In this document: positions 17,653 through 62,541 of the stretch, piece after piece
Numbering within the stretch: position 1 is the stretch's first letter
How the letters are laid out: every line of letters starts with the position of its first letter
Source of the DNA: a virus
DNA length: 64,000 nucleotides
IMG/VR virus record: IMGVR_UViG_3300032086_003797
Location: 32,001 to 96,000 of that record
Strand: one strand, 5' to 3'
The notes under the pieces: generated by a model
The model's input: the letters and a program-made list of their open reading frames with translations, nothing else
What the model was told of the DNA's origin: nothing
Databases searched by the model: none
Translations under genes and position numbers: made by a program

Positions 17653-20600
17653 TTGCACATGACAAAACGAATCGAGAGCAAGATTCCTTTTGTGGGACTC
17701 CACGCCCACTCAGGACTTTCCCCGTTTGATGGCTTAGGTATGCCAGGCGAACATATGGACTTCGCCTTTGAGAATGGGATGAATGCCCACTCGCTTACCG
17801 ACCACGGACACATGAATGGCTTATCCTTCCAGGTTGAGCACCTAAAGAAGATGAGGGCAGATGGAAAAGACTTCAAAGCAATCTATGGTTGTGAAGCTTA
17901 CTTTATCAAGTCACACAAGAAGTGGCGTCAACAGTACGAAGAACACAAAGCCAGTAGCAAGCGGCAAAAGAAAGAAGAGTTTGCTATGGTTGTTGAGGAT
18001 GAGAACCGCCAGAAGAAGTTCAACCCTCTAAACATCCGCAGGCATTTGGTTCTATTGGTTCAGAATCAGGTTGGATTGAGCAACCTCTTCAAGCTTGTAT
18101 CGGACAGTTACCGTCCCGAGAATTTTTATCGCTACCCCCGTATCGACTTTGAGATGTTGGACAAATACAACGAGGGCTTGCTTGTTAGCAGTGCTTGTAT
18201 GTCAGGTCCGCTCTTTGGGGACTTTTGGAAGCACCGTGATCCAGTCACTCACGAGTACGACGCAGACATGGTTTTAGCATCGATGCGGCAGACGATCGGG
18301 GAGTTCCAGGATATCTTTGGCGACAGGTTCTACGGGGAGATCCAGTGGAACGACATTCCAGAGCAGCACATTGTCAATGACCTAATCATCCAAGCCTGTA
18401 CCGAGATGGGCGCAGAGGTTATCAGTACATCCGACAGCCATTACCCACGACCAGAATTGTGGAAGGACCGTGAGATGTACCGCCGTATTGGGTGGGCGGG
18501 CAAAGCTCCTTATGAAGATCAGGACGCTCATAGGCTGCCAGAGTCGGTAGAAGAGATCGGCTATGAGTTATATCCTCGCAACGGGGATCAGATGTGGGAT
18601 GCCTACAAGAAGTACGCAGGTCGATCTAAGGTAGAGTATGATGATGACTTTGTGTTGGCTAGCATTGAGCGCACACATCAGATCGCCTTTGATCGTATCG
18701 AGGACTTCCTACCAGACAGCGAAGTTCGCCTACCAGATTTTGTTGTGCCAGAGGGTAGCACGGCAATGCAGACCCTAACAAAGCAGGCACTCAAGGGGCT
18801 AAAAGATAAAGACCTTAAAGACCAAGAGTATATCGATCGCCTCAAGTATGAGTTGTCGGTTATTAAAGATCGAGGCTTCGCTCAATACTTCTTGACGATG
18901 AAGGCTATTAGCGACAGGGCGCAAGAGGAGATGCTTGTGGGTCTCGGTCGAGGCTCGGCAGCAGGATCATTATTATCCTACGTCCTAGACATTACGCAGG
19001 TCGACCCAATCAAGTATGCTCTCCAGTTTGAGAGGTTCCTAACCAAGGGCGGCAAAGGCTACCCCGACATCGACTTTGATGTTGAGGAGCCAATGCAACT
19101 CAAGGAGCAACTCGCAGAGGAGTGGGGGAAGATCGGCGTCAATGTTGTCCCCATCAGCAACTTCAACACGCTCCAGTTGCGCTCACTCATCAAAGACATT
19201 GGGAAGTTCTATGGCGTCCCGTTTGCAGAGGTGAACAAAGTCACAGGCGTCATGATGAGCGAAGCTACCCCTAAAGCCAAAGCAGCCCACGGTCAGACTG
19301 CGGGCGTTTACGTCCCGACATTTGAGGAAGTGAAGAAGTACAGCGAAACACTCCAGGCGTTCTTCGACAAGTACCCCGAGATCGCAACGCATGTTGACAA
19401 TCTTTTTGGCAATGTTCGTAGTGTGAGTAGGCACGCTGGTGGCATCGTTGTGGCAGAGAACTTGGATAAGCACATGCCATTGATCAACTCAGGTGGTGTG
19501 ATGCAAACCCCGTGGAGCGAGGGGCAGAACGTCAGGCACCTTGAGCCGCTCGGTTTTATTAAGTTTGACCTTCTCGGACTCTCAACTCTCCGTATGATTT
19601 CGGGAGCAATTCGACATGTGCTCAAGCGCCATCACGGCATTGAAGAGCCGACCTTTGAACAGGTCCGTGCCTTTTATGATGAGAAATTACACCCCGATGT
19701 AATCGACTTCGATGACCAAGAAGTCTGGAAAAATATTTTCCATAAAGGTAAGTGGGCGGGCGTTTTCCAGATGACCAGCGGACCAGCCCAGGCTTTCTGC
19801 CAAGAGGCAAAACCAGAGTCGCTTATGGACTTTGCAGCCATCACGGCAATCTTTAGACCAGGACCTTTGTCGGCAAAAGCGGATAAGATGTATATTGCCA
19901 ATAAGAGCAATCCAGATCAGGTAGAGTATAAGCACCCGCTTATCGAGGAGGTGCTAGGGGATACATACGGGTTACTGGTGTTCCAAGAGCAGTTGGCTAT
20001 GCTGGCTCACAAGCTGGGAGATAACATCTCGCTAGACGAAGGGAATCTCCTCCGCAAGGTTCTTACCAAGCGTGGCACAGGCAAAGACAGCGTAAGAGAT
20101 AAGATCTACGCTAAGTTTGTCAAAGGCTGCAATGACAAGGGGCTATCGGAGCAGGTTGCTAAAGACCTTTGGGCAAAGATGGTATTCTTCTCAGGCTACG
20201 GCTTCAACTTGTCACATGCAGTATCTTACGGAGCGGTGTCGTTTCAGTGCGCTTGGTTGGCACACTATTATCCGACCGAATGGATCGCAGCGTTCTTGGA
20301 CAAGGAGCCAGAGAAGCGCAAGATGGCAGCAATCAACACAGCCAAGAAGTTTGGCTTCAACATCGTACCAGCCAGCATCAACAAGTCAGGAATGGTTTGG
20401 GAGATCTCCGAGGATGGGCAAAACCTCATCCAGCCGTTGACTGCGATCAAGGGGTTGGGATCAACAGCTATCCAGCAAATCTTGGACCACCGACCTTTCA
20501 ATACGATTGAGGAGTTTATTTTCAATGAAAACATTACTTACTCCAAACTAAACAAGAAGGCACTGGACGTCCTGGTCCGAAGCCAGGCATTGAATGAGTT

Positions 20601-21087
20601 GATGGATGATCGCTTCACAGGGATGAAACACTTTTGGTCTTCTGTGGCAGTCGATCGCCCACGCAAGGAGAAGAACCTAATTGAGAATATTGACGCATAC
20701 AAAGAAGAAGGTAGCTTTACAAAGGAAGAAAAGATAGAACATCTAACAACCTTGACGGGAATCTATCCTATCGATCTAATCATGGATGATTTTACAAAGC
20801 AAGCTCTCATGAATAAGGGTTGCCCTCCCATCTCCGAGTTCGACCCCGAGCTTATCCTTTGTTGGTTCATTCCAAGAGAGATCAAGGTCAAGAAGACGAA
20901 GCACGGCAAGAAATATTATATTGTGTCAGTGACAGATCACAACGGAGCAGATGAGCAGATCAAATGCTGGGGTGTAAAAGACACAGACATTATTAAAACT
21001 AATCGTATTTACGTTGGCAAGCTTAAACATGAACCACGATGGGGATTTAGTACTTACAGCGTCAAGCATAATCTTAGGCTTTTATAA
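17653..21087 (+). CDS. dnaE: DNA polymerase III alpha subunit
   Basis: PHP domain (LHAHS, LTDHG, SDSHY), GRGSAAGS, YPDIDFD, SRHAGG, KFDLLGL, GYGFNLSHA; start probably ATG 17659. Confidence 0.96.
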   Translation: MHMTKRIESKIPFVGLHAHSGLSPFDGLGMPGEHMDFAFENGMNAHSLTDHGHMNGLSFQVEHLKKMRADGKDFKAIYGCEAYFIKSHKKWRQQYEEHKASSKRQKKEEFAMVVEDENRQKKFNPLNIRRHLVLLVQNQVGLSNLFKLVSDSYRPENFYRYPRIDFEMLDKYNEGLLVSSACMSGPLFGDFWKHRDPVTHEYDADMVLASMRQTIGEFQDIFGDRFYGEIQWNDIPEQHIVNDLIIQACTEMGAEVISTSDSHYPRPELWKDREMYRRIGWAGKAPYEDQDAHRLPESVEEIGYELYPRNGDQMWDAYKKYAGRSKVEYDDDFVLASIERTHQIAFDRIEDFLPDSEVRLPDFVVPEGSTAMQTLTKQALKGLKDKDLKDQEYIDRLKYELSVIKDRGFAQYFLTMKAISDRAQEEMLVGLGRGSAAGSLLSYVLDITQVDPIKYALQFERFLTKGGKGYPDIDFDVEEPMQLKEQLAEEWGKIGVNVVPISNFNTLQLRSLIKDIGKFYGVPFAEVNKVTGVMMSEATPKAKAAHGQTAGVYVPTFEEVKKYSETLQAFFDKYPEIATHVDNLFGNVRSVSRHAGGIVVAENLDKHMPLINSGGVMQTPWSEGQNVRHLEPLGFIKFDLLGLSTLRMISGAIRHVLKRHHGIEEPTFEQVRAFYDEKLHPDVIDFDDQEVWKNIFHKGKWAGVFQMTSGPAQAFCQEAKPESLMDFAAITAIFRPGPLSAKADKMYIANKSNPDQVEYKHPLIEEVLGDTYGLLVFQEQLAMLAHKLGDNISLDEGNLLRKVLTKRGTGKDSVRDKIYAKFVKGCNDKGLSEQVAKDLWAKMVFFSGYGFNLSHAVSYGAVSFQCAWLAHYYPTEWIAAFLDKEPEKRKMAAINTAKKFGFNIVPASINKSGMVWEISEDGQNLIQPLTAIKGLGSTAIQQILDHRPFNTIEEFIFNENITYSKLNKKALDVLVRSQALNELMDDRFTGMKHFWSSVAVDRPRKEKNLIENIDAYKEEGSFTKEEKIEHLTTLTGIYPIDLIMDDFTKQALMNKGCPPISEFDPELILCWFIPREIKVKKTKHGKKYYIVSVTDHNGADEQIKCWGVKDTDIIKTNRIYVGKLKHEPRWGFSTYSVKHNLRLL

Positions 21088-34464: not shown

Positions 34465-34540
34465 AATGCGTGTGAGCACAATTGAAATGATGGTATTGCT
34501 TGCGTTGGCTGTATTGGCTGGCGTAATTTTTTTATAATAT

Positions 34541-34587
34541 TTCCTTGACCAATGCCTGATGTGTGGTATTATAAATTGTAAGGGAGA
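34541..34587 (+). promoter_or_regulatory. Early promoter+RBS cassette, copy 1
   Basis: CTTGAC-N14-TGG-TATTAT-AAATTGTAAGGGAGA. Confidence 0.85.
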
Positions 34588-34593
34588 CAAATA

Positions 34594-35217
34594 ATGAGTT
34601 ACTGGTCCCAAATGTACCGCCGCCCTCAACGAGCAGAGCGCCTTGAGCTTGAGAACGGCGAGGCTCGCTTCGAGTCCTTGATGGCTAGGAAGCTATCGCA
34701 AGGAGACCGCAAGTTCGCTGAGTCTCTCAAGAGTCAGTTTGAGGATGGCGGCAAGCTGTCTCCCAAGCAGATTGAGTGTGTTGAGCGTATGGAGCAACGC
34801 TACTCTGATGAGTCTGTGTTGAAGCGTGAGCAGTGGGCTCAGTCCTACAAGGCTGACCACCGTGAGACCGCTATCATCGTGGCTCGCTACTATCGCACCA
34901 CTCAGTACTTCCGAGATCTTGCCAGCAAGATTCTCTTAGACGAGGAATTTATTCCTACCGAGCGCCAGTTCATCGCCATGACCAAAAACAAGTATGCTAA
35001 GAAGGCTATTGCCACTGCGACCGAACCGCCAGCTTTCCCTGTTGGTTCGCTCTGCAAGATCCGTGCTAACGCTAGCCTGGTACATCAACGTGAGTTACAC
35101 AACCAAGTTGCGCTTGTTATGGATAATCATCCTATCGGTCTCCACGCTAAGTCAACCTTGCTTGTGAACGGTATCCAAGTCAAGCTAGAGGATCGCTGCT
35201 TGAAAGTAGCGAAATAA
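34594..35217 (+). CDS. Early hypothetical protein with C-terminal KOW/SH3-like domain
   Basis: Directly follows cassette 1; FPVGSLCKI. Confidence 0.75.
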   Translation: MSYWSQMYRRPQRAERLELENGEARFESLMARKLSQGDRKFAESLKSQFEDGGKLSPKQIECVERMEQRYSDESVLKREQWAQSYKADHRETAIIVARYYRTTQYFRDLASKILLDEEFIPTERQFIAMTKNKYAKKAIATATEPPAFPVGSLCKIRANASLVHQRELHNQVALVMDNHPIGLHAKSTLLVNGIQVKLEDRCLKVAK

Positions 35218-45618: not shown

Positions 45619-45644
45619 AATAATAATAAAATATATTTGCCAGT

Positions 45645-45691
45645 TTCCTTGACGTATCCCCTATCCGTGGTAATATAAATTGTAAGGGAGA
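45645..45691 (+). promoter_or_regulatory. Early promoter+RBS cassette, copy 2
   Basis: CTTGAC-N14-TGG-TAATAT-AAATTGTAAGGGAGA. Confidence 0.85.
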
Positions 45692-45698
45692 TACAGAT

Positions 45699-46601
45699 AT
45701 GGGTTATCGCACTAATCAATGTCAACACTGTGGTCAATACGGACACAACCGTCGTGGCTGCCCACAAATCAAAGAAGCCCACGCCAGAGTTGAGAGCCTT
45801 GCCGAGAAGTACGGCATTGAGCGTTTGGAAGATGAGCTTGCCTACGCTTCCACTCAGTGGATCAGCAGAATCAACGAGGCTGCCAAGATTCAAGACGCCG
45901 ATGAGGATGAAATCTCCTGGCGTGACCGCTGGCTCTGGGAAGAGGTTGAAGAGCGCAAGATTGCTCAGGCTCGCAAGAACAAGCGTGGTCGTCGCTGCGG
46001 TTTCTGCGGTGCTCACGGTCACAACGCTCGAACCTGCCCAACTAAAAAGGAACATCGTGTCCAAGCTGATCGAGTTCAGGGTCTTGCCCATCGTGTAGTA
46101 GCGGCGGTTCTTGAGAAGGCTGGGATTGTCCCAGGGGCTGTAGTTGGGGTTCGGGAGTGGGATTACAAAGCTGAGGAATACCGTATGGCTCCAGCCCTTG
46201 TCAGTCACATCGAGTGGGATGCGATTGCCAAGCCTGGCTATAAAACGCCGCAAGGCATTCCAAACATCTTTGAGGACTGGTTCTCCAAGCCAATGATTCG
46301 GGTTCAGACGCCCAATGGCTCGGGGCTAATAAGAATCCCTTACTCTCTCAAGCAGTGCCCAGAGTACCACTGGTACGAAGGCAGGGAAGATCATAACTCT
46401 TCGATGATCAGCCCATATCTTGCGGGTGAGGTAAACAAGAGTCAAGGCTGGAAGGGTGACGACATCTCACTGATCGACCCAGAGCATTGCAGTAAGATCC
46501 AGCGTTGGTCATCCGTTTCTTGGTGCGCCGATGAGGAGCTTACTCCTGTCATTGAAAAGCTCATCGCAGAGGTCGGTCTTGCTATGAACGATATCTTATA
46601 A
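45699..46601 (+). CDS. Early protein with two CCHC zinc knuckles
   Basis: CQHCGQYGHNRRGC and CGFCGAHGHNARTC. Confidence 0.8.
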   Translation: MGYRTNQCQHCGQYGHNRRGCPQIKEAHARVESLAEKYGIERLEDELAYASTQWISRINEAAKIQDADEDEISWRDRWLWEEVEERKIAQARKNKRGRRCGFCGAHGHNARTCPTKKEHRVQADRVQGLAHRVVAAVLEKAGIVPGAVVGVREWDYKAEEYRMAPALVSHIEWDAIAKPGYKTPQGIPNIFEDWFSKPMIRVQTPNGSGLIRIPYSLKQCPEYHWYEGREDHNSSMISPYLAGEVNKSQGWKGDDISLIDPEHCSKIQRWSSVSWCADEELTPVIEKLIAEVGLAMNDIL

Positions 46602-49985: not shown

Positions 49986-50969
49986 GGAGTTATGACAAGT
50001 TACCATGTAGACAAGAAGCTCGACCAGTTGACCGAGAGATTCTCAGAAGAGATCAACAAGGTCATCGCAGGCTTTGGTCATGAGTTAGAATACTTTCAAG
50101 ACAGAGTAGAACGCCTTGAGAAAAACCACAAGCGGACCCAAATGAAGCTAGGATTCCTAAGCCTCGTGGTTCTGCTAAGTTTCATCCTATAAGCAGCGGG
50201 CGACAAATAATAATGTTTGAATTAGAAAACCCCAATAAAGAAGAAATGATAGAACACATCTATAAGATTGCAGATGAGTATATCCAGAAGAGCATAGATG
50301 ATCCTAATGGAGAGTTAGCTTATCAAGAAACAGAATGGAGAACCCCAGGTAACTGGTTTGCTTCTATCGAGGATATCGAAGGTTGGGTTAAGTTGATCAC
50401 TTCGCATAACAACTTCTATGGTTATGTTACAAGAGAGTTATATAAGTTAGGCTTCTATGATGAAATAGGTAATGAATACAGTGGTAGTGCTTTCAGCCGA
50501 ATGTGGCATGGCAGAGAAGGACTTGCTGCCAAGGGTGAGTACGGAGTGACCGATGTGCCTATTAATCAATTGAGGATACAACGGAACAAGAAAAGAAGAG
50601 CCGCCAGGGGCAGCACCTTTCGTGTTTAGTAACTTTGCCTAATATTTGTGCATAGTTGTGTTTAGGAGTGACAATAAATGGGCGTTTTTTTTCAAGTTGA
50701 CAGCAAAGTCATAGGGGTGCCTACTTTTTGTGCAAAAGGATTGCTTATTAATTGTGCAAAAATAAGGTTTTGATTATAAAATAGGCACAGTGTGACATTA
50801 TTGTCATAGTGACCTTGGAGGTGCGAAGAGACCTAATACATAGATGATGTAAAGTCGTCAAGAAGATTATTTAGCAGGCTAAAGGGAATAAACTCTCATT
50901 ATACACCATATACTATTGGTTGTTAAAGCAGGTTTTCGCAGGAGAAAAAAGTGAAAAAAGTTTAGCAGT

Positions 50970-51016
50970 TTCCTTGACTCCCAGCGTATACATGGTAATA
51001 TAAGATGTAAGGGAGA
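50970..51016 (+). promoter_or_regulatory. Early promoter+RBS cassette, copy 3
   Basis: CTTGAC-N14-TGG-TAATAT-AAGATGTAAGGGAGA. Confidence 0.85.
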
Positions 51017-51025
51017 GAGATTGAT

Positions 51026-52078
51026 ATGAGTGTAGACTTCAAAACCTTTGTGAACTTAGCGCCTGCGGTATCTGCCGCTCGCCTGCCTGTCCTGCTTCGT
51101 GGTCGCCACGGTGTTGGTAAAAGCCAGGTTGTTTACCAGATTGCTAAGAACATGGAGCTTCCAGTTGTGGAGCGCCGTGCTTCCCAAATGACCGAGGGTG
51201 ACTTGGTTGGCTTGCCCAGCATTGAGGGCAATCGCACCAGCTTCAATCCGCCAGACTGGTTCAAACAGGCTTGTGAAGAGCCCGTTGTCCTGTTTCTGGA
51301 CGAAGTTGACCGTGCCACCTTGGAAGTTCGCCAAGGTATCTTTGAGTTGACGGACAGTCGGAAGCTCAATGGGCACTACCTTCACGCTGATACGCTTGTG
51401 TTCGCTGCCATCAACGGTGGTGAGCACGGTGAGCAGTACCAAGTCAATGAGATGGACCCAGCGGAACTTGACCGTTGGTCAGTCTGGGACATTGAGCCTA
51501 CGGTTGAGGACTGGTTGTCCTGGGCTAAGGGCAATGTTGACTCCCTGGTTTGGGACTTCATCAACCAAAACCGTGATCACCTTGAGCACAACGGTGACAT
51601 CGAGCCCAACAAGCGGTACCCTAGCCGTCGTAGTTGGGATCGGCTGAACCAAGTGTTGGCAAAAGCTGACCTTCTGGAGTCCCCAGGTCCCCAGATGTTC
51701 GCCCTTGCTCAGTCCTTCGTGGGCTTCGAGGCTGCTGTCTCCTTCAATGACTTCGCTGCCAACTATGAGCGGCAGGTTACGGTTCAACAGTTGCTTGCTG
51801 GTGAGCGTGTGGAAGCCCTAGCTGGGTTCTCCCTAAATGATAACTGCGCTTTGATCGAGAAGCTTGACGCTTCTGGTGCGCTCAAAGAAGAAGACCTTAG
51901 CGAGGAACAGGTTGTGAACCTGGCTAAGTATTTCGTAACCCTTCCTAGCGAAGCTGCCATGAAGCTGTGGCAAGTTGTCGCTCGGATGCCACAACCCAAA
52001 GTGAAGCTGTTTCATGCTGCTGAGCTTGCTGACGGTGAATCCGTCGCTGGGTACCTGGCAAAGATCTTGGGAGCCTAA
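51026..52078 (+). CDS. MoxR-like AAA+ ATPase
   Basis: GRHGVGKS, LFLDEVDRA, FAAIN, MDPAELDRW, PSRRSW. Confidence 0.88.
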   Translation: MSVDFKTFVNLAPAVSAARLPVLLRGRHGVGKSQVVYQIAKNMELPVVERRASQMTEGDLVGLPSIEGNRTSFNPPDWFKQACEEPVVLFLDEVDRATLEVRQGIFELTDSRKLNGHYLHADTLVFAAINGGEHGEQYQVNEMDPAELDRWSVWDIEPTVEDWLSWAKGNVDSLVWDFINQNRDHLEHNGDIEPNKRYPSRRSWDRLNQVLAKADLLESPGPQMFALAQSFVGFEAAVSFNDFAANYERQVTVQQLLAGERVEALAGFSLNDNCALIEKLDASGALKEEDLSEEQVVNLAKYFVTLPSEAAMKLWQVVARMPQPKVKLFHAAELADGESVAGYLAKILGA

Positions 52079-52116
52079 TCTCTACCCTTACACAACCAAG
52101 GTTCCTTTGAGATCGG

Positions 52117-52152
52117 CAGAGCCCACCGAAGTAATGGTGGGCTTCTGTTTTT
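52117..52152 (+). terminator. Rho-independent terminator
   Basis: AGCCCACC/GGTGGGCT stem followed by a T run. Confidence 0.75.
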
Positions 52153-52175
52153 AAAGGGCAAATAAATATAGTAGT

Positions 52176-52222
52176 TTACTTGACAGGTAGCCATAGTGTG
52201 GTACTATAAATTGTAAGGAAGA
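52176..52222 (+). promoter_or_regulatory. Early promoter+RBS cassette, copy 4
   Basis: CTTGAC-N14-TGG-TACTAT-AAATTGTAAGGAAGA. Confidence 0.85.
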
Positions 52223-52228
52223 GATGAA

Positions 52229-53461
52229 ATGAGTTTTGATCTAAAACTACATGCTTATCGCTTACTGCTCAAAGAGCCTTTCTTTGCTGCTCTAAGTCGT
52301 AAGATTGAAAAGAAGGAAAACTATGGTATCCCTACTGCGGGTGTCAGAGTCAATCCTGAGAATGGTCACTTTGAGATGGCTTACAACCCAGACTTCTTTG
52401 AAGGTCTGAGTGATGTAGAAAAAGCTGGCGTACTCAAGCATGAGTTCTATCACTTGATCTTTGATCATGTTACCAGTCGTAAGCCAGAAGGCGTGCCACA
52501 CAAGAAGTGGAACATCGCTGCTGACCTGGCTATCAATAGCCACTTGGTTGGCGAGCTACCTGACAACTGCTGTATGCCTGGTGTCGCTCCCTTTGAAGAC
52601 ATGCCCAAGGGTGAGTCTGCTGAGTGGTACTTAGCCAACATGCCTGAGGACAAAGAGTCTGAGGGTGAGGGTGAAGGTAGCGGTGATGGCGCTGAGGGCG
52701 AGGGTGAGTCAGGAGAAGGTGGCGACTCTGGCGGGCAAGAAGAAAATAATGATAACGGCTCTGCTAGCCCTGGTAACTTTGATGATCACTCTGGCTGGGA
52801 AGAAGCTGCCAGTAGTGAGGTAGCCCAGATGGCTAAGGAGCGACTCAAGAACGCCATCAAAGAAGCTGCCCAAGAAGCTGCTCAAGCTTCAGGAGGCTGG
52901 GGCTCAGTGTCAGGTGAGGTACGCAAAGAGATCATGAAGCGCCTTGAGACCAAGGTAGACTGGCGCAAGGTCCTTCGCTACTTCATCAAGACCAGCCAGC
53001 GTGCCAGCAAGAGCAGCACGGTAAAGCGGATTGATAAGCGTTACCCCTACATCCATCCAGGCAAGAAGGTACGGCGGCAAGCTAAGATTGCAATTGCCAT
53101 CGATCAGTCTGGTAGTGTTAGTGATGAGATGCTAGAAGCTTTCTTTGCTGAGTTGAATAACCTGGCTAAGCTTGCTGAGTTCACCGTGGTACCCTTCGAT
53201 ACCCAGGTCGATCAGGATAAGGTCTACGTCTGGAAGAAAGGCAAGAGCCAAAAGGCTGAGCGTGTGATGTGTGGCGGTACCTGCTTTGATGCTCCAACCG
53301 AATGGGCTAACAACAACAGCGTGGATGGCATCATTATCCTAACGGATATGGAAGCCCCCAAGCCCAAGCGGTGCAAGGCGCAGCGGATGTGGCTAACGGA
53401 TGCTCGGGGTGCTAGCCGTCCCTACTTCCAAACCAATGAGCGAGTGATCGCCGTAGACTAA
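52229..53461 (+). CDS. DUF2201-type metallopeptidase + VWA protein
   Basis: HEFYH, WNIAADLAIN, acidic Gly-rich linker, DQSGS, GGT.F, LTD. Confidence 0.88.
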   Translation: MSFDLKLHAYRLLLKEPFFAALSRKIEKKENYGIPTAGVRVNPENGHFEMAYNPDFFEGLSDVEKAGVLKHEFYHLIFDHVTSRKPEGVPHKKWNIAADLAINSHLVGELPDNCCMPGVAPFEDMPKGESAEWYLANMPEDKESEGEGEGSGDGAEGEGESGEGGDSGGQEENNDNGSASPGNFDDHSGWEEAASSEVAQMAKERLKNAIKEAAQEAAQASGGWGSVSGEVRKEIMKRLETKVDWRKVLRYFIKTSQRASKSSTVKRIDKRYPYIHPGKKVRRQAKIAIAIDQSGSVSDEMLEAFFAELNNLAKLAEFTVVPFDTQVDQDKVYVWKKGKSQKAERVMCGGTCFDAPTEWANNNSVDGIIILTDMEAPKPKRCKAQRMWLTDARGASRPYFQTNERVIAVD

Positions 53462-57435: not shown

Positions 57436-57897
57436 ATGGCTAAGAGAAGAAAAAGAAGACGAATAGCATTTCTGAATCGAATGAAGGATATGATGAATGA
57501 AGATCCTTCATTACCACTGGATCGTGCTAAGACACTAACTGAGGTTGAAGTCAAGAATGCGCTCCGTGTTGCGGATGCAAAAGCACGACATGATAAAGAA
57601 GAGCATCATAGAGTATTCGAGGAAACGTTATTCGGTAAGAATACTACTACCACACCCGTAAAGGAAACAACGACGGTAACTCCTGTAGAAGCCAAAGCAA
57701 CACCCGTGAAAACGGAGACAGTGACTACTACTGCTACTAAGCCAGTGGTTACCAAGGCGACCACGACTACTGTTACTGAAAAAGCTACAGCAGTTACCAC
57801 CAAAACAACCACCACAGCTAAGACTACAGCCAAAGCTAGAACAGCCAGTAAGTCTAAAAAGCGAACCACTACCAAGAGTAGAAAGAAGAAGGCTTAA
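57436..57897 (+). CDS. Basic Thr/Lys-rich low-complexity protein
   Basis: AGGAGG RBS; T/K-rich tail. Confidence 0.7.
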   Translation: MAKRRKRRRIAFLNRMKDMMNEDPSLPLDRAKTLTEVEVKNALRVADAKARHDKEEHHRVFEETLFGKNTTTTPVKETTTVTPVEAKATPVKTETVTTTATKPVVTKATTTTVTEKATAVTTKTTTTAKTTAKARTASKSKKRTTTKSRKKKA

Positions 57898-59674: not shown

Positions 59675-59701
59675 TAGGTAACTTACAGCTTTGGCTAAGA
59701 G

Positions 59702-59732
59702 AAAGGCACTCCTTCGGGGGTGTCTTTTTTTT
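59702..59732 (+). terminator. Rho-independent terminator
   Basis: AAAGGCACTCC-TTCG-GGGGTGTCTTT followed by a T run. Confidence 0.85.
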
Positions 59733-59750
59733 ATCTTTTTTATTTTTGAT

Positions 59751-59797
59751 TTCCTTGACATATAGCCGTGCTATGGTATTATAAATTGTAAGGGAGA
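59751..59797 (+). promoter_or_regulatory. Early promoter+RBS cassette, copy 5
   Basis: CTTGAC-N14-TGG-TATTAT-AAATTGTAAGGGAGA. Confidence 0.85.
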
Positions 59798-59804
59798 TAG
59801 AGTT

Positions 59805-60260
59805 ATGAAGTTAGAGAATGCTATCAAAAGAATCAACAAGCGTGCCAGCATCGTTGGTCGTGAGGTTGAGATCGATCGTCGTGATCGCAAAGTTTATGTT
59901 CGCTTTGAAGATGCTGTGAGCGAGCTTTCATTTTGGGTCAATAGTGATGGTCACATCAGTTCTCCTCATATTCGCCGTTATAATGACCATAGCGATATTA
60001 TGGTAGATTACTTCGCTGGTTATCATCTCGATAATCTCAAGCAAGCACTTGATTCGCTGGCTCCATTGCCACCGAAGTACGAAGTCGGCTCTCTTGTTCA
60101 GTTCAAGAACAGTAAGCGTAATCAGCGTTGGAAGCTGGCGGGCAAGGTTGCCTTGGTGATCCAAGCTGAGTCTGGCGGTAACTACAAGGTTCAGTACCCA
60201 GGTAGCGAAGATCGTTACAATCCTTTCTACTCCGAGCGTGATTTAGAGTTGGCGGCATAA
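59805..60260 (+). CDS. Early hypothetical protein with C-terminal KOW/SH3-like domain
   Basis: YEVGSLVQF..GKVALVI..YKVQY. Confidence 0.7.
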   Translation: MKLENAIKRINKRASIVGREVEIDRRDRKVYVRFEDAVSELSFWVNSDGHISSPHIRRYNDHSDIMVDYFAGYHLDNLKQALDSLAPLPPKYEVGSLVQFKNSKRNQRWKLAGKVALVIQAESGGNYKVQYPGSEDRYNPFYSERDLELAA

Positions 60261-60540
60261 ATGAGAAGCAAAGAAATCTTAGAAGAAATCAAAGCACGAT
60301 GCCCCATCAAGCTTGGGGATCTTGTGATGGCAGGTGGCAACTTTGACGACGCAGGCAACAAAGCAGTTCCTGTTATGTGCTTGGTGGAAAGTCTATCACC
60401 AGCTAACGACGATGCTTTTGATCGGGCCTACGAAGGTGCTGAAGATCACTTGATGTTTCGGCTGCAACCAGTAGGCGTTAAAGAGTCTAATATCGGATTG
60501 TTTGTTGACTACGCATGTAATCTAGAAAAAGTTTAAATAT

Positions 60541-60587
60541 TTGCTTGACACTTTGATATAGTGTGGTATTATAAATTGTAAGGGAGA
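60541..60587 (+). promoter_or_regulatory. Early promoter+RBS cassette, copy 6
   Basis: CTTGAC-N14-TGG-TATTAT-AAATTGTAAGGGAGA. Confidence 0.85.
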
Positions 60588-60783
60588 GAGAAATGATTCA
60601 AGTAGGTTCCAAAGTTAGTCACCGTTTTCACCCGCTTTACCACAACAGTATTGGTAAAGTCATTAGCCTTGAGGGTCACCAGTTTGATGGTCACCAGATG
60701 GTCGTTGTGGATTGGGGTGTAAGTAAAAAAAGCATGTACCCCATCCAACATCACCACGCAGAAGCATTACGAAAGGAAGCATA

Positions 60784-61098
60784 ATGGCTATTGCAAATCC
60801 CGAAGTTGAGTTTCACCTGCAAGACTTTATTGGTCAGTGTGTTGAGATTATCAGTGAGCACTACAGTTCTAAGTTGCCAAACTTGGAGGTTCCCGAAGTC
60901 AAAATCAAAGAGGGTGGCAAGTATTACAAAATCTTTAAGCAGCAGGGCGAATACAACTCACACGTTTGGTTCTTCGTCAGCAAAGAGGACGGCTTTATTT
61001 GGAAGCCTGCTTCTTGGAAAGCTCCTGCTCGCAACTTCCCTCGTGGAAATATTCTTGAAGACAAAGCAAAAGACGTCATTGGCGTCTACGGAATCTAG
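60784..61098 (+). CDS. Hypothetical phage protein
   Basis: GKYYKI..FV..DG.IWKPASWKAPA..RGNI. Confidence 0.7.
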   Translation: MAIANPEVEFHLQDFIGQCVEIISEHYSSKLPNLEVPEVKIKEGGKYYKIFKQQGEYNSHVWFFVSKEDGFIWKPASWKAPARNFPRGNILEDKAKDVIGVYGI

Positions 61099-61431
61099 GA
61101 GGAAATGATGGATTACGAATTAAGAGAATTCGATGAGGATATTTTTATCCAATGGTTTACAGAGGAGGCTCGTAATGGTAGGATGCCACCAGAGCGAATG
61201 CAAGAACCCAATTGGGGAGTGAGTCCTGAGTTTCTCATCAACTCTTCTTTTGATGCGATCGCAGCCGACCGAGCAAAATGGCTGCAACCATTGATGTTCT
61301 TGGCAGGCATTAGCGTTGGTATGATTGGCGGAGCACTTTTGAGTTTAGAATATCCTATTTATTGGCTAACATTATAAGCCCGTAGGAGGTAAACCCCATG
61401 AAGAAAAAATACACACGTCGAAGATAAGTGT

Positions 61432-61592
61432 TAGGGGTCAACCCGACCGATCTGGCAGGAAGCATAAAGAGCCAGCGTCCCTACCTTCAGTAACCACATA
61501 CCTTTTGAAGAGTTGCGTGTGGAAAACGGTTTGTAGGGTCAGATACACATGGAACAGGAGCCCCAGACGTACTTGGGCGAAAACTCTTCACA
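61432..61592 (+). ncRNA. Candidate structured ncRNA upstream of tRNA-Arg
   Basis: No ORF; stems CTGGC/GCCAG, CCCTAC/GTAGGG and CCCAG/TTGGG; 9-bp crossing pair TGAAGAGTT/AACTCTTCA. Confidence 0.5.
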
Positions 61593-61595
61593 TAT

Positions 61596-61672
61596 GGTCC
61601 AGTAGCTCAGTTGGATAGAGCAACGGTCTTCTAAACCGTGGGTCGCAGGTTCAAATCCTGCCTGGATCACCA
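61596..61672 (+). tRNA. tRNA-Arg (anticodon UCU)
   Basis: Cloverleaf; anticodon loop CTTCTAA; GTTCAAATC; encoded CCA. Confidence 0.95.
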
Positions 61673-61684
61673 AGGAGTTTTGAG

Positions 61685-62287
61685 ATGTTGAAAGTATTAG
61701 GGAAGTTGCCGAGGGAGTTAGTGGTCGCTGTTAGTGGTGGTCCTGATTCTATGGCTATTTTAGATTTCCTTAATAATAATCATAAGGTGACAGCATATTA
61801 TTTTGATCATGGCACAACATTCGGAGAAGAGGCGTACCATTTCCTTAAGAGCTACTGCGCAAGTAGAAAAATCCCATTTGTAACCAGCGTTTTATCAGAA
61901 TCTCGTCCAAGCGGCAAGTCACTTGAGGAACATTGGCGGGATGAACGCTATAAACGATTTCACGACTATAACCTACCCATCGTAACTGGGCATAATTTAG
62001 ACGATGTTATTGAATGGTTCCTGTTCTCATCTGTGCATGGTAAAGGAAAAGTTATTCCTTATCAAAATAAAAATGTTATCCGTCCTTTCCTATCTACCTC
62101 GAAGCAAAGCTTGATTGACTGGTGTACAAGAAAAGGTATTCCGTTTCTGACTGACCCTGGTAATAGTAACAGAAAATTTATGAGAAGTATTATCAGACAC
62201 GACATGATGCCTATCGTAGAAGAAATTAACCCAGGTATTCAAAAAACATTTAAAAAAATTGTAGAAAGCAGGTATAATAACATCTAA
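61685..62287 (+). CDS. tilS: tRNA(Ile2) lysidine synthetase, catalytic domain only
   Basis: AVSGGPDS, DHG, R..RY, TGHNLDD, IRP, DPGN, RSIIRH. Confidence 0.9.
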   Translation: MLKVLGKLPRELVVAVSGGPDSMAILDFLNNNHKVTAYYFDHGTTFGEEAYHFLKSYCASRKIPFVTSVLSESRPSGKSLEEHWRDERYKRFHDYNLPIVTGHNLDDVIEWFLFSSVHGKGKVIPYQNKNVIRPFLSTSKQSLIDWCTRKGIPFLTDPGNSNRKFMRSIIRHDMMPIVEEINPGIQKTFKKIVESRYNNI

Positions 62288-62296
62288 CAGCACTGT

Positions 62297-62373
62297 GGTC
62301 CACTAGCTCAATTGGTTAGAGCAACTGACTCATAATCAGTAGGTTCGAGGTTCGATCCCTCGGTGGACTACCA
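62297..62373 (+). tRNA. tRNA with CAU anticodon, most likely tRNA-Ile2
   Basis: Cloverleaf; GACTCATAATC anticodon arm; C4:G69 and C5:G68 TilS determinants; starts 10 nt after tilS. Confidence 0.88.
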
Positions 62374-62374
62374 T

Positions 62375-62450
62375 GCCCGAATGGCTCAATTGGTAGAGCA
62401 GCGGTTTTGTAAACCGAAGGTTGTAGGTTCAAGTCCTACTTTGGGCACCA
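62375..62450 (+). tRNA. tRNA-Thr (anticodon UGU)
   Basis: Cloverleaf; anticodon loop TTTGTAA; encoded CCA. Confidence 0.93.
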
Positions 62451-62458
62451 AGAACAAT

Positions 62459-62484
62459 AAGCTCCCGAAAGGGGGCTTTTTTGT
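62459..62484 (+). terminator. Rho-independent terminator
   Basis: AAGCTCCC-GAAA-GGGGGCTT followed by a T run. Confidence 0.85.
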
Positions 62485-62541
62485 TTTATATGCAGTCTAT
62501 TTATTTTGTATGCCTAATATAATAATACAGGACTTCTTTAT

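What the first reader, a model, noticed from the sequence alone, without database searches (positions are those of the whole stretch)
61596..62450. TilS plus three tRNAs supply the AGA/AUA/ACA codons that promoter-cassette genes avoid
Seen: tRNA-Arg(UCU), tilS, tRNA(CAU) with Ile2 determinants and tRNA-Thr(UGU) form one unit with a terminator. Reading codons by eye, I found no ATA, AGA or ACA in the 350-codon gene at 51026 or the 207-codon gene at 34594, and only sporadic ones in 52229, 59805 and 45699. Genes such as 4145 and 16206 use them freely. Known: TilS converts the CAU anticodon to lysidine so that it reads AUA. Inference: early genes are written for host tRNA pools (a more GC-rich host), while later genes depend on phage-supplied decoding, acting as a translational gate on timing or as insurance against host anticodon nucleases.
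Basis: partly seen in the sequence, partly recalled or inferred. Interest (0 to 1): 0.72.

Follow-up and report, generated by a model that had tools for sequence, protein, structure and literature searches.

The report
Phage tRNA plus mini-TilS decoding module
An uncultured marine phage carries three tRNAs and a one-domain lysidine synthetase for the codons AGA, AUA and ACA, which its most strongly expressed genes avoid; this is the classic T4-style codon-compensation pattern with the phage's own tRNA-modifying enzyme added, not a timing switch.

Summary
tRNA-Arg(UCU), a 200-aa TilS, a CAU tRNA and tRNA-Thr(UGU) form one terminated unit, and they are the only tRNAs in the 174.6-kb genome.

The six genes behind a repeated sigma70-type promoter/leader cassette use ATA, AGA and ACA 6 times in 200 Ile/Arg/Thr codons. 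GC3-matched genes use them at 21% and the genome at about 36%. These are the 1st, 2nd and 4th most depleted of 59 codons, and the pattern is conserved in diverged relatives.

The proposed translational timing gate is not supported:
- Genes co-transcribed behind the cassette genes use the codons at 19-33%.
- The late major head protein avoids ATA (2/25) and AGA (0/30), and SSB without a cassette avoids all three.
- Among 142 non-cassette genes, usage falls with an independent expression-like codon signature (rho -0.58).

The best reading is T4-style codon compensation plus translational selection.

New points:
- TilS is catalytic-domain only, with no CTD1 or CTD2 anywhere in the genome.
- It is linked to a CAU tRNA in 21/21 contigs.
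- The tilS gene itself avoids ATA.
- A conserved micro-ORF and a 168-nt pseudoknotted RNA precede the unit.

This scan has already noted mini-TilS/tRNA(CAU) modules in other phage genomes.

The parts
34540..34587 (+). Promoter/leader cassette 1 (TTGAC, extended -10, conserved leader with Shine-Dalgarno)
34594..35217 (+). Cassette gene, 207 aa, no family; ATA 0/10, AGA 0/18, ACA 0/8
45644..45691 (+). Promoter/leader cassette 2
45699..46601 (+). Cassette gene, 300 aa, zinc-knuckle protein; ATA 1/22, AGA 3/23, ACA 0/7
50969..51016 (+). Promoter/leader cassette 3
51026..52078 (+). Cassette gene, 350 aa, MoxR-type AAA ATPase; none of the three codons in 36 Ile/Arg/Thr codons
52175..52222 (+). Promoter/leader cassette 4
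52229..53461 (+). Cassette gene, 410 aa, DUF2201 metallopeptidase-like plus VWA domain; 1/49
59750..59797 (+). Promoter/leader cassette 5, preceded by the terminator at 59696-59733
59805..60260 (+). Cassette gene, 151 aa, no family; 1/21; no Thr residue
60540..60587 (+). Promoter/leader cassette 6; probable promoter of the transcription unit that ends with the tRNA/TilS module
   Evidence: no terminator between it and 62459
60593..61377 (+). Three small genes: 63 aa (60593-60784), DUF7717 of 104 aa (60784-61098), and an 89-aa gene (61108-61377). ATA 0/21; the first two have no Thr
61398..61427 (+). Micro-ORF MKKKYTRRR* behind AGGAGG; ends CGT CGA AGA TAA; found in every relative with upstream sequence
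61428..61595 (+). Conserved structured RNA of about 168 nt: six helices including a pseudoknot; no Rfam match
61596..61672 (+). tRNA-Arg(UCU), reads AGA and probably AGG
61685..62287 (+). Mini-TilS, 200 aa: catalytic PP-loop domain only; ATA 0/15, AGA 5/12, ACA 5/9
62297..62373 (+). tRNA(CAU), elongator type, probable tRNA-Ile2 and TilS substrate
62375..62450 (+). tRNA-Thr(UGU), reads ACA
62459..62488 (+). Intrinsic terminator closing the unit

Best explanation
The stretch is a phage translation-supplement module of the T4 type. It sits at the promoter-distal end of a unit driven by a near-consensus sigma70 cassette promoter. In order it holds a micro-ORF, a 168-nt structured RNA, tRNA-Arg(UCU), a catalytic-domain-only lysidine synthetase, a CAU tRNA, tRNA-Thr(UGU) and a terminator.

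How it most likely works:
1. Host RNA polymerase transcribes the unit early (inferred from the promoter).
2. The tRNAs are cut out of the transcript.
3. Mini-TilS converts C34 of the adjacent CAU tRNA to lysidine, so that the tRNA is charged with Ile and reads AUA (inferred from homology and linkage; no chemistry shown).
4. The cell's capacity to decode AGA/AGG, AUA and ACA rises. These make up a third or more of the phage's Arg, Ile and Thr codons, and 43-46% in the arm after the unit.

The near-absence of these codons from the six cassette genes is real and conserved. It is the extreme end of translational selection on the most strongly translated genes. Those genes keep codons that the unsupplemented host pool reads best. 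It does not separate early from late genes.
For: Shown:
- The unit and its terminator.
- It has no convincing promoter of its own and no terminator lies between cassette 6 and the unit.
- TilS identity: TIGR02432 above cutoff; PP-loop SGGPDS and the other catalytic motifs aligned to three solved TilS structures; model at pLDDT 95 with the top six PDB hits all TilS, TM 0.79-0.83.
- TilS and a CAU tRNA are linked in 21/21 related contigs, one of them intron-split.
- ACA, ATA and AGA rank 1, 2 and 4 of 59 codons by depletion in cassette genes, with AGG third. The chance of three named codons all falling in the top four is about 1e-4.
- The next most depleted codons, GCA and GGA, are those read by the commonest extra tRNAs of relatives, Ala-UGC and Gly-UCC.
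- The depletion survives GC3/A3 control and recurs behind the equivalent cassettes of relatives: 0-5% against 24-41% in L002, L007, L010, L015 and L019. Synonymous sites have turned over heavily in these relatives, with a median 47% of identical TilS residues using different codons.
- Evidence for an expression link and against a timing link: co-transcribed genes use the codons at 19/30/33%. The head protein has ATA 2/25 and AGA 0/30. SSB has 0/12, 0/14 and 2/24. UvsX has ATA 1/28, ClpP 0/20 and DnaE 1/71. Across 142 non-cassette genes rho is -0.58, p = 5e-14.
- tilS specifically avoids ATA across the clade: 11/170 at conserved Ile columns, against ACA 49/91 and AGA 74/187. This fits AUA decoding being limiting until TilS is made.

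Literature:
- T4 encodes Arg(UCU), Ile(CAU, lysidine), Thr(UGU) and Gly(UCC), and early promoters precede tRNA genes in T4-like phages (PMC1524935).
- Early and late phage genes differ in codon bias (PMC5683454, listed, abstract only).
- Phage tRNAs have been proposed to serve late structural genes (PMC12482277).
Against: - The host is unknown, so 'host-optimal' is inferred from the phage's own best-adapted genes and not from a host tRNA set.
- No expression data exist. 'Highly expressed' rests on gene function (head, sheath, SSB) and on promoter and Shine-Dalgarno strength.
- Cassette genes remain more depleted than the general signature predicts (log OR -1.38, p = 8e-5).
- ACA is avoided only by cassette genes and SSB. 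The late head and sheath proteins use it at 34-35%, which leaves room for a timing component for ACA.
- Lysidine formation by a TilS without any C-terminal domain has never been shown. A 2025 study found that removing only CTD2 from a Type I enzyme lowers activity strongly (PMC11947777).
Confidence: 0.7

Rival explanations
1. Translational timing gate. Immediate-early genes are written without ATA, AGA and ACA so that they can be translated on host tRNAs alone. Later genes are held back until the phage tRNAs and lysidinylated tRNA-Ile2 accumulate.
For: - The first gene behind each strong sigma70-type cassette has almost none of the three codons.
- The whole stretch 59805-62287 upstream of and including tilS has ATA 0/48.
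- tilS avoids ATA but not AGA or ACA across the clade.
- ACA is absent from cassette genes yet used at 34-35% in the late head and sheath genes.
- Usage is highest in the arm that starts right after the unit.
Against: - Genes co-transcribed within 11-65 nt of the cassette genes use the codons at 19-33%, so genes of the same timing class are not gated.
- The late, abundant head protein avoids ATA and AGA, so these codons stay disfavoured even when the phage tRNAs should be at their peak.
- SSB, UvsX, ClpP and DnaE avoid ATA without any cassette.
- The depletion is continuous with a general codon-optimisation signature.
- Most bacteria can already read all three codons, so a hard gate is unlikely (established knowledge).
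Confidence: 0.15
2. Insurance against host tRNA-targeting defences. The phage copies replace host tRNA-Arg, tRNA-Ile2 or tRNA-Thr that are cleaved by host anticodon nucleases during infection.
For: The idea is established for other phages (PMC10264068, listed). The phage also carries a tmRNA, so it invests in rescuing translation.
Against: - The clade's tRNA repertoire follows the A-ending, most-avoided codons, as codon compensation predicts.
- The three anticodon loops (CUUCUAA, CUCAUAA, UUUGUAA) are ordinary.
- No nuclease or host is known here.
Confidence: 0.05
3. Compositional artefact. The cassette genes are recent imports from a GC-richer source and have not yet drifted to the phage's AT-rich codon use.
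For: Cassette genes have GC3 of 0.39-0.58 against about 0.35 for the genome.
Against: - The bias is kept in orthologues of relatives whose synonymous sites have turned over heavily.
- It survives GC3 matching.
- It favours U-ending GCT, GGT, CGT and CTT over GCC/GCG, GGC, CGC and CTG, which is selection on particular codons and not GC content.
- The cassettes themselves are a phage-specific repeat.
Confidence: 0.05

Closest known systems
Phage T4 tRNA gene cluster and the codon-compensation model
   Same: - T4 encodes tRNA-Arg(UCU), tRNA-Ile(CAU, lysidine-modified), tRNA-Thr(UGU) and tRNA-Gly(UCC) (PMC1524935). That is the core set of this clade.
- Early promoters precede tRNA genes in T4-like phages.
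- In the T4 record the cluster has an ORF (segB) between tRNA-Ile and tRNA-Arg, and two small stable RNAs of unknown function next to tRNA-Arg.
- In T4, tRNA gene presence appears to correlate with phage-versus-host codon bias.
   Different: - T4 relies on the host's TilS; this phage brings its own.
- The ORF inside the cluster is tilS, not a homing endonuclease.
- Gene order along the transcript is reversed.
- The 168-nt RNA has no sequence similarity to T4 rnaC or rnaD.
- The T4 late-promoter motif TATAAATA is not enriched here (3 found, about 10 expected), and the replicative polymerase is DnaE-like.
Short TilS of Pseudomonas jumbo phages PA5oct and MIJ3 (first phage TilS reported, 2019)
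   Same: About 200 aa and about 40% identical over 97% of the length. Annotated as tRNA(Ile)-lysidine synthetase, with function stated as unknown (PMC6892783). The phage genome also encodes CAU tRNAs.
   Different: In PA5oct no tRNA gene lies within 4 kb of tilS. Here tilS lies 12 nt after tRNA-Arg and 9 nt before the CAU tRNA, and TilS and a CAU tRNA are linked in 21/21 contigs.
Bacterial TilS Type I (E. coli 1NI5, G. kaustophilus 3A2K) and Type II (A. aeolicus 1WY5/2E21/2E89)
   Same: Same catalytic PP-loop domain by sequence and by fold (TM 0.79-0.83). Conserved motifs are SGGxDS, HxxDDxxE, RP, DxxN and RxxxRH.
   Different: It lacks CTD1 and CTD2, and neither domain is found anywhere in the genome. 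[quoted passage not shown] The acceptor-stem pairs read by Type I enzymes vary freely in the clade's CAU tRNAs.
Leader-peptide attenuators (trpL, hisL, pheL class) and stalling at rare Arg codons before a stop
   Same: A short translated ORF with a strong Shine-Dalgarno lies upstream of the genes it might control. It ends in consecutive Arg codons directly before the stop. That context appears in the title of Hayes, Bose and Sauer 2002 as an efficient determinant of SsrA tagging in E. coli (reference list of PMC3985003).
   Different: - No terminator hairpin with a U-tract follows.
- The invariant codon is CGA, which the phage tRNA-Arg(UCU) does not read, and four relatives end CGA-CGA.
- Thr is missing from the micro-ORF in three relatives.
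- The downstream RNA is a compact pseudoknotted fold.

Membership tests
TilS (tRNA(Ile)-lysidine synthetase) | N-terminal PP-loop ATP-pyrophosphatase domain with SGGxDS, scoring above the curated cutoff of the TilS N-domain model | tested here: met
   TIGR02432 at 116.6 bits against a cutoff of 93.6; PF01171 at 107.6 bits; SGGPDS at residues 17-22
TilS (tRNA(Ile)-lysidine synthetase) | Fold of the TilS catalytic domain | tested here: met
   Model at pLDDT 95.4; top six PDB matches are TilS structures, TM 0.79-0.83 over the query
TilS (tRNA(Ile)-lysidine synthetase) | At least one C-terminal tRNA-binding domain (CTD1 in Type II; CTD1 plus CTD2 in Type I) | tested here: not met
   The alignment covers only residues 13-228 of the solved enzymes. 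Only 9 nt separate the stop from the next tRNA. PF09179 and PF11734 are absent from the whole genome. The 120 best near-length homologues are mostly about 200 aa (168-225).
TilS (tRNA(Ile)-lysidine synthetase) | Converts C34 of tRNA-Ile2 to lysidine | not testable with these tools
   Needs an in vitro lysidinylation assay or mass spectrometry of the tRNA
tRNA-Ile2 (CAU, lysidine-dependent) | CAU anticodon in an elongator body, not an initiator | tested here: met
   Anticodon loop CUCAUAA. Position 1 pairs with 72 (G1-U72), and the anticodon stem ACUGA/UCAGU lacks the initiator's three G-C pairs
tRNA-Ile2 (CAU, lysidine-dependent) | Acceptor-stem pairs C4-G69 and C5-G68, the E. coli TilS identity elements | tested here: inconclusive
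   Present in the window's tRNA and in T4 tRNA-Ile, but in only 6 of the 17 tRNA(CAU) genes aligned. These elements are species-specific (PMC11947777).
tRNA-Ile2 (CAU, lysidine-dependent) | Genetic association with a lysidine synthetase and heavy use of AUA | tested here: met
   Linked to tilS in 21/21 contigs. It is the only CAU tRNA in the genome. ATA is 33% of Ile codons.
tRNA-Ile2 (CAU, lysidine-dependent) | Isotype-specific model score (tRNAscan-SE Ile2 against Met), and charging with Ile | not testable with these tools
   No isotype models are on hand. BLAST similarity is uninformative: the best hits are tRNAs of other isotypes.
Phage tRNA codon compensation | Phage tRNAs match codons common in the phage and poorly served by the host | tested here: inconclusive
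   The three codons are common in the phage (33-38%) and are the most avoided in its best-adapted genes. The host and its tRNA pool are unknown; two searches for host hints failed.
Leader-peptide transcription attenuator | Leader ORF whose control codons match the regulated product, followed by alternative terminator and antiterminator hairpins | tested here: not met
   The ORF and its Shine-Dalgarno are conserved. No U-tract terminator follows. The invariant codon CGA is not read by the phage tRNAs, and AGA is replaced by CGA in four relatives.

The most novel reading that the evidence does not exclude
The module tunes itself. The conserved micro-ORF, which ends in slow Arg codons directly before its stop, and the 168-nt pseudoknotted RNA that begins inside it would report ribosome speed and set how much tRNA and TilS transcript is made or survives. 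The ATA-free tilS gene would solve the start-up problem of an enzyme that must be made before AUA is read well. The catalytic-domain-only TilS would pick out its co-evolving CAU tRNA from the anticodon arm alone, a third TilS type.
Probability: 0.2. Interest if true: 0.8.

Novelty: new variant of a known kind. Interest (0 to 1): 0.45.

Why it matters
The codon pattern is a clean, quantified and evolutionarily replicated example of the T4 paradigm in an uncultured marine phage. It also shows how a striking early-gene pattern can be separated from a true timing gate using only sequence: co-transcribed genes and late abundant proteins serve as the controls.

The part with lasting value is the enzyme. 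The current TilS literature recognises only forms with one or two tRNA-binding domains, and it calls open the question of how the shorter form tells tRNA-Ile2 from tRNA-Met. Here a natural enzyme has neither domain. It is always linked to its probable substrate, and that substrate's acceptor stem varies freely. This pair is a ready-made minimal system for that question.

The ATA-free tilS gene and the conserved micro-ORF and RNA in front of the unit suggest that phages regulate their own decoding capacity.

Tried and rejected
- Isotype of the CAU tRNA by BLAST against E. coli genomes and phage records: the best hits were tRNA-Thr, tRNA-Lys and tRNA-Arg, so this was uninformative.
- Host identification failed. 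DnaE has no close relative in 185,579 species genomes. The RNA motif is absent from bacterial genomes.
- The single-sequence fold of TilS was useless (pLDDT 47). It was replaced by the alignment-based model.
- The T4 late promoter TATAAATA as a timing marker: 3 copies against about 10 expected, so it is not usable here.
- Homology of the 168-nt RNA to T4 rnaC or rnaD: none. To any Rfam family: none at E up to 1.
- My first promoter regex for relatives had the wrong spacing and found nothing. The corrected one worked.
- The idea that L007 had lost its CAU tRNA was rejected. The gene is split by a group I intron after the anticodon.
- The idea that the micro-ORF is a codon-matched sensor of the phage tRNAs was weakened. 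The invariant codon is CGA, and Thr and AGA are not universal.
- Conservation of the Thr-free run was checked in relatives. Low Thr content (1.4-5.7% in cassette genes against 4.7-6.6% in the other genes) is shared by all but one locus, but zero Thr is not.
Full report
**What is there.** The window is bases 32001-96000 of a single 174,625-bp virus record of 42.2% GC. CheckV rates it 95% complete. Nearly all genes lie on the + strand: 211 of my 215 calls.

ARAGORN and Rfam agree on three tRNA genes:
- tRNA-Arg(TCT) at 61596-61672
- tRNA(CAT) at 62297-62373
- tRNA-Thr(TGT) at 62375-62450

These are the only tRNAs in the genome. Between the first two lies a 200-codon ORF, 61685-62287. It starts 12 nt after tRNA-Arg and ends 9 nt before the CAU tRNA. 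A hairpin with a T-run at 62459-62478 closes the unit.

**The enzyme.**
- The ORF scores 116.6 bits on NCBIfam TIGR02432 (lysidine_TilS_N, cutoff 93.6) and 107.6 bits on Pfam PF01171.
- It aligns only to the N-terminal catalytic domain of the three solved TilS enzymes (residues 21-226 of 3A2K, 25-228 of 1WY5, 13-204 of 1NI5). The PP-loop SGGPDS and the motifs GHNLDDxxE, RPF, DPGN and RxxxRH are all kept.
- A model built from 52 homologues has pLDDT 95.4. Its six best PDB matches are all TilS, with TM 0.79-0.83 over the query.
- Neither C-terminal domain family (PF09179, PF11734) is found anywhere in the genome.
- The 120 best near-length homologues listed, out of 484 with E at or below 1e-10, are mostly about 200 aa (range 168-225) and come from metagenomes.
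- Current literature divides TilS into Type I (two C-terminal domains) and Type II (one). [quoted passage not shown] Deleting CTD2 alone lowers activity strongly and relaxes acceptor-stem discrimination (PMC11947777).
- A phage TilS of this short kind was first reported in MIJ3/PA5oct in 2019, with function unknown (PMC6892783). It is about 40% identical to this one and is not next to a tRNA.

**The CAU tRNA.**
- It is an elongator, not an initiator. G1 pairs with U72, and the anticodon stem lacks the three G-C pairs of initiators.
- It has C4-G69 and C5-G68, as does T4 tRNA-Ile. Only 6 of the 17 tRNA(CAU) genes aligned, including this window's, have these pairs. They are therefore not a clade-wide determinant, which fits an enzyme with nothing to read the acceptor stem.
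- The strongest evidence for Ile2 identity is linkage. All 19 TilS-bearing relatives from IMG/VR, plus two more contigs found through the RNA motif, carry one CAU tRNA beside tilS.
- The single apparent exception, L007, has the gene split by a group I intron right after the anticodon (Rfam RF00028, 84.7 bits).
- I could not run isotype-specific models, and BLAST was uninformative. I put Ile2 identity at about 0.85.

**The cassette and the codon claim.** The cassette TTTCCTTGAC, 14 nt, TGGTAnTATAA, ATTGTAAGGGAGA, then 4-9 nt to the ATG occurs six times, all in the window. It is a near-consensus sigma70 promoter with an extended -10, fused to a fixed leader and a strong Shine-Dalgarno.

The genes behind it are a MoxR-type AAA ATPase, a DUF2201/VWA protein, a zinc-knuckle protein and three proteins with no family match. 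None is SSB or GroEL.

| Codon | Cassette genes | Genome |
|---|---|---|
| ACA | 0/36 | 38% |
| ATA | 1/70 | 33% |
| AGA | 5/94 | 37% |

- Of 59 synonymous codons these three rank 1st, 2nd and 4th by depletion, with AGG third. AGG is also in reach of tRNA-Arg(UCU). The chance of three named codons all falling in the top four is about 1e-4.
- Other A-ending codons are depleted too, but less. GCA and GGA fall 4- to 5-fold, most others about 2-fold, and CAA hardly at all.
- Against 28 GC3-matched genes the odds ratio is 0.11 (p = 5e-12). After adjusting for GC3 and A3 of the other amino acids it is 0.14 (p = 1e-10). A gene-level rank test on residuals gives p = 7e-5.

**Replication in relatives.**
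- The cassette architecture is conserved, with sequence drift, 1-4 kb upstream of tilS in most relatives.
- Genes behind the full cassette again nearly lack the three codons: L002 1.2%, L007 4.5%, L010 4.2%, L015 0% and L019 4.4%, against 24-41% for the other genes of the same loci.
- Among TilS orthologues a median 47% of identical residues use different codons. The bias is therefore maintained by selection and not inherited passively.

**Why it is not a timing gate.** There are four lines of evidence.
1. Only three convincing terminators lie between 33104 and 62478. The roughly 29-kb block is covered by six cassette-driven units. The 51 other genes of this block use ATA, AGA and ACA at 19%, 30% and 33%. 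The jump happens at the second gene, 11-65 nt after the first. The boundary therefore follows the cassette's translation signal and not the time of transcription.
2. The major head protein is late and abundant. It has ATA 2/25 and AGA 0/30, though ACA 14/41. The tail sheath has ATA 5/47.
3. Genes without a cassette that should be well expressed also avoid the codons:
   - SSB: 0/12, 0/14 and 2/24
   - UvsX: ATA 1/28
   - ClpP: ATA 0/20
   - DnaE: ATA 1/71 and AGA 3/50
   - DnaB: ATA 1/29
   - GroEL is only mildly depleted (5/39, 10/28, 10/35).
4. I built an index of 'cassette-like' codon use from amino acids other than Ile, Arg and Thr. Across 142 non-cassette genes the three-codon fraction falls with it (Spearman -0.58, p = 5e-14), and SSB, the head protein and DnaE are among the highest-scoring genes.

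The preferred codons are C-ending in two-fold boxes and U-ending in GCN, GGN, CGN and CTN. That is a translational-selection signature and not a GC shift, so a 'more GC-rich host' is not needed.

Usage rises in tiers:

| Gene class | ATA | AGA | ACA |
|---|---|---|---|
| Cassette-first genes | 1.4% | 5.3% | 0% |
| Rest of the cassette block | 19% | 30% | 33% |
| Genes upstream of the block | 25% | 33% | 35% |
| The 73 genes after the tRNAs | 43% | 46% | 43% |

- Cassette genes are still more depleted than the general signature predicts (log OR -1.38, p = 8e-5). That index was trained on the cassette genes themselves.
- ACA is avoided only by cassette genes and SSB.
- tilS itself has ATA 0/15 here. 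At conserved Ile columns across the clade it has ATA 11/170, while ATT and ATC interchange freely. ACA (49/91) and AGA (74/187) are not avoided in tilS.

This last point is specific and not part of general optimisation, because tilS has GC3 of 0.33. It fits AUA decoding being limiting until the enzyme exists. I therefore keep a small probability for a timing component.

**Comparison with the known.**
- T4 encodes tRNA-Arg(UCU), tRNA-Ile(CAU, lysidine-modified), tRNA-Thr(UGU) and tRNA-Gly(UCC).
- Every tRNA-bearing T4-like genome studied has an Ile-type CAU tRNA.
- Early promoters precede the tRNA genes.
- T4's tRNA genes appear to correlate with phage-versus-host differences in codon bias (PMC1524935).
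- Codon-bias differences between early and late phage genes (PMC5683454, listed) and use of phage tRNAs for late structural genes (PMC12482277) are published.
- The extra tRNAs of relatives (Gly-UCC, Ala-UGC, Val-UAC, Lys-UUU, Glu-UUC) read further A-ending codons, and GCA and GGA are the next most depleted here.

This is the T4 paradigm with the modifying enzyme added. Notes of this scan record similar mini-TilS/tRNA(CAU) modules in several other phage genomes.

**The upstream elements.**
- Upstream of tRNA-Arg, a 9-codon ORF (61398-61427, MKKKYTRRR*) behind AGGAGG is conserved in all 16 relatives that have upstream sequence, and in shortened form (MNKRR*) in two more. Synonymous variation occurs within it, and it ends (K/R)-R-R-stop, written [AAA/CGN/AGA] CGA [AGA/CGA] TAA.
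- From its stop to the first tRNA of the cluster, whichever tRNA that is, the distance is a constant 166-175 nt.
- This stretch is nearly invariant. It fits a six-helix fold with a pseudoknot: 98% of cells are paired against 27-47% in slid controls, and 5 pairs and 21 cells carry compensatory changes.
- It matches no Rfam family. It occurs only in this phage clade and in no bacterial genome. It is unrelated in sequence to T4's rnaC and rnaD, which occupy the analogous place next to tRNA-Arg.
- It is not a classical attenuator. There is no U-tract terminator, and the invariant codon is CGA, which the phage tRNAs do not read.
[quoted passage not shown] 2002 (reference list of PMC3985003). The phage also carries a tmRNA (Rfam RF00023, 81.9 bits).
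- Other first-stage notes flagged the same micro-ORF independently.

**Verdict.** The unit is a T4-type codon-compensation module carrying its own catalytic-domain-only TilS. The cassette genes' avoidance of ATA, AGA and ACA is the extreme of expression-linked codon selection and not a timing gate.

Noticed in passing
window 59805-61098: Four consecutive genes (151, 91, 63 and 104 aa; 409 residues) contain no threonine. With flanking residues, the Thr-free run of 430 residues is the most extreme run lacking any amino acid in the proteome, 3.1 times the expected longest run. Cassette genes have about half the Thr content of other genes here and in all but one relative locus with cassette genes. 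Zero Thr is not conserved in distant orthologues. Unexplained.
   Followed up: partly
window 61398-61595: A conserved micro-ORF ending in Arg-Arg-stop, followed by a nearly invariant pseudoknotted RNA of about 168 nt, directly upstream of the tRNA cluster in every relative. It has no Rfam match and is absent from bacterial genomes.
   Followed up: yes
L043:8590-8912 (genome 104590-104912, about 8.6 kb beyond the window's end): A phage-encoded tmRNA (Rfam RF00023, 81.9 bits against a cutoff of 47; tag peptide ANDDFQLAQAA by ARAGORN). ARAGORN also finds it in relative L019 at 20207-20530.
   Followed up: partly
L007:11410-11747: In one relative the CAU tRNA next to tilS is split right after the anticodon by a group I intron (RF00028, 84.7 bits). 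A 226-aa ORF lies between tilS and the tRNA's 5' exon and runs 15 nt into it.
   Followed up: partly
L001:9832-9906 against window 61590: The 92%-identical relative has an 80-nt insertion, exactly one extra tRNA-Gly(ACC), between the RNA element and tRNA-Arg. tRNA genes are gained and lost as precise units at this junction.
   Followed up: partly
window 57436-57897: A 153-aa protein with 37 threonines (24%) and no family match lies 2 kb upstream of the Thr-free genes.
   Followed up: no
window 62249-62278: A promoter-like site (TTTAAA, 18 nt, TATAAT) lies inside the 3' end of tilS, just upstream of the CAU tRNA. In relative L002 a full cassette and a gene lie between tilS and the CAU tRNA. The two distal tRNAs may therefore have extra transcription input.
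   Followed up: no
window 51026-53461: The MoxR-type AAA ATPase and its VWA/DUF2201 partner each have their own promoter cassette, with a terminator (52120-52143) between them. This is unusual for a pair that is normally co-transcribed.
   Followed up: no
whole genome: The T4 late-promoter motif TATAAATA occurs 3 times against about 10 expected, and the replicative polymerase is DnaE-like (window 17659-21087). The label 'T4-like' in earlier notes fits the virion genes better than the replication and late-transcription systems.
   Followed up: partly
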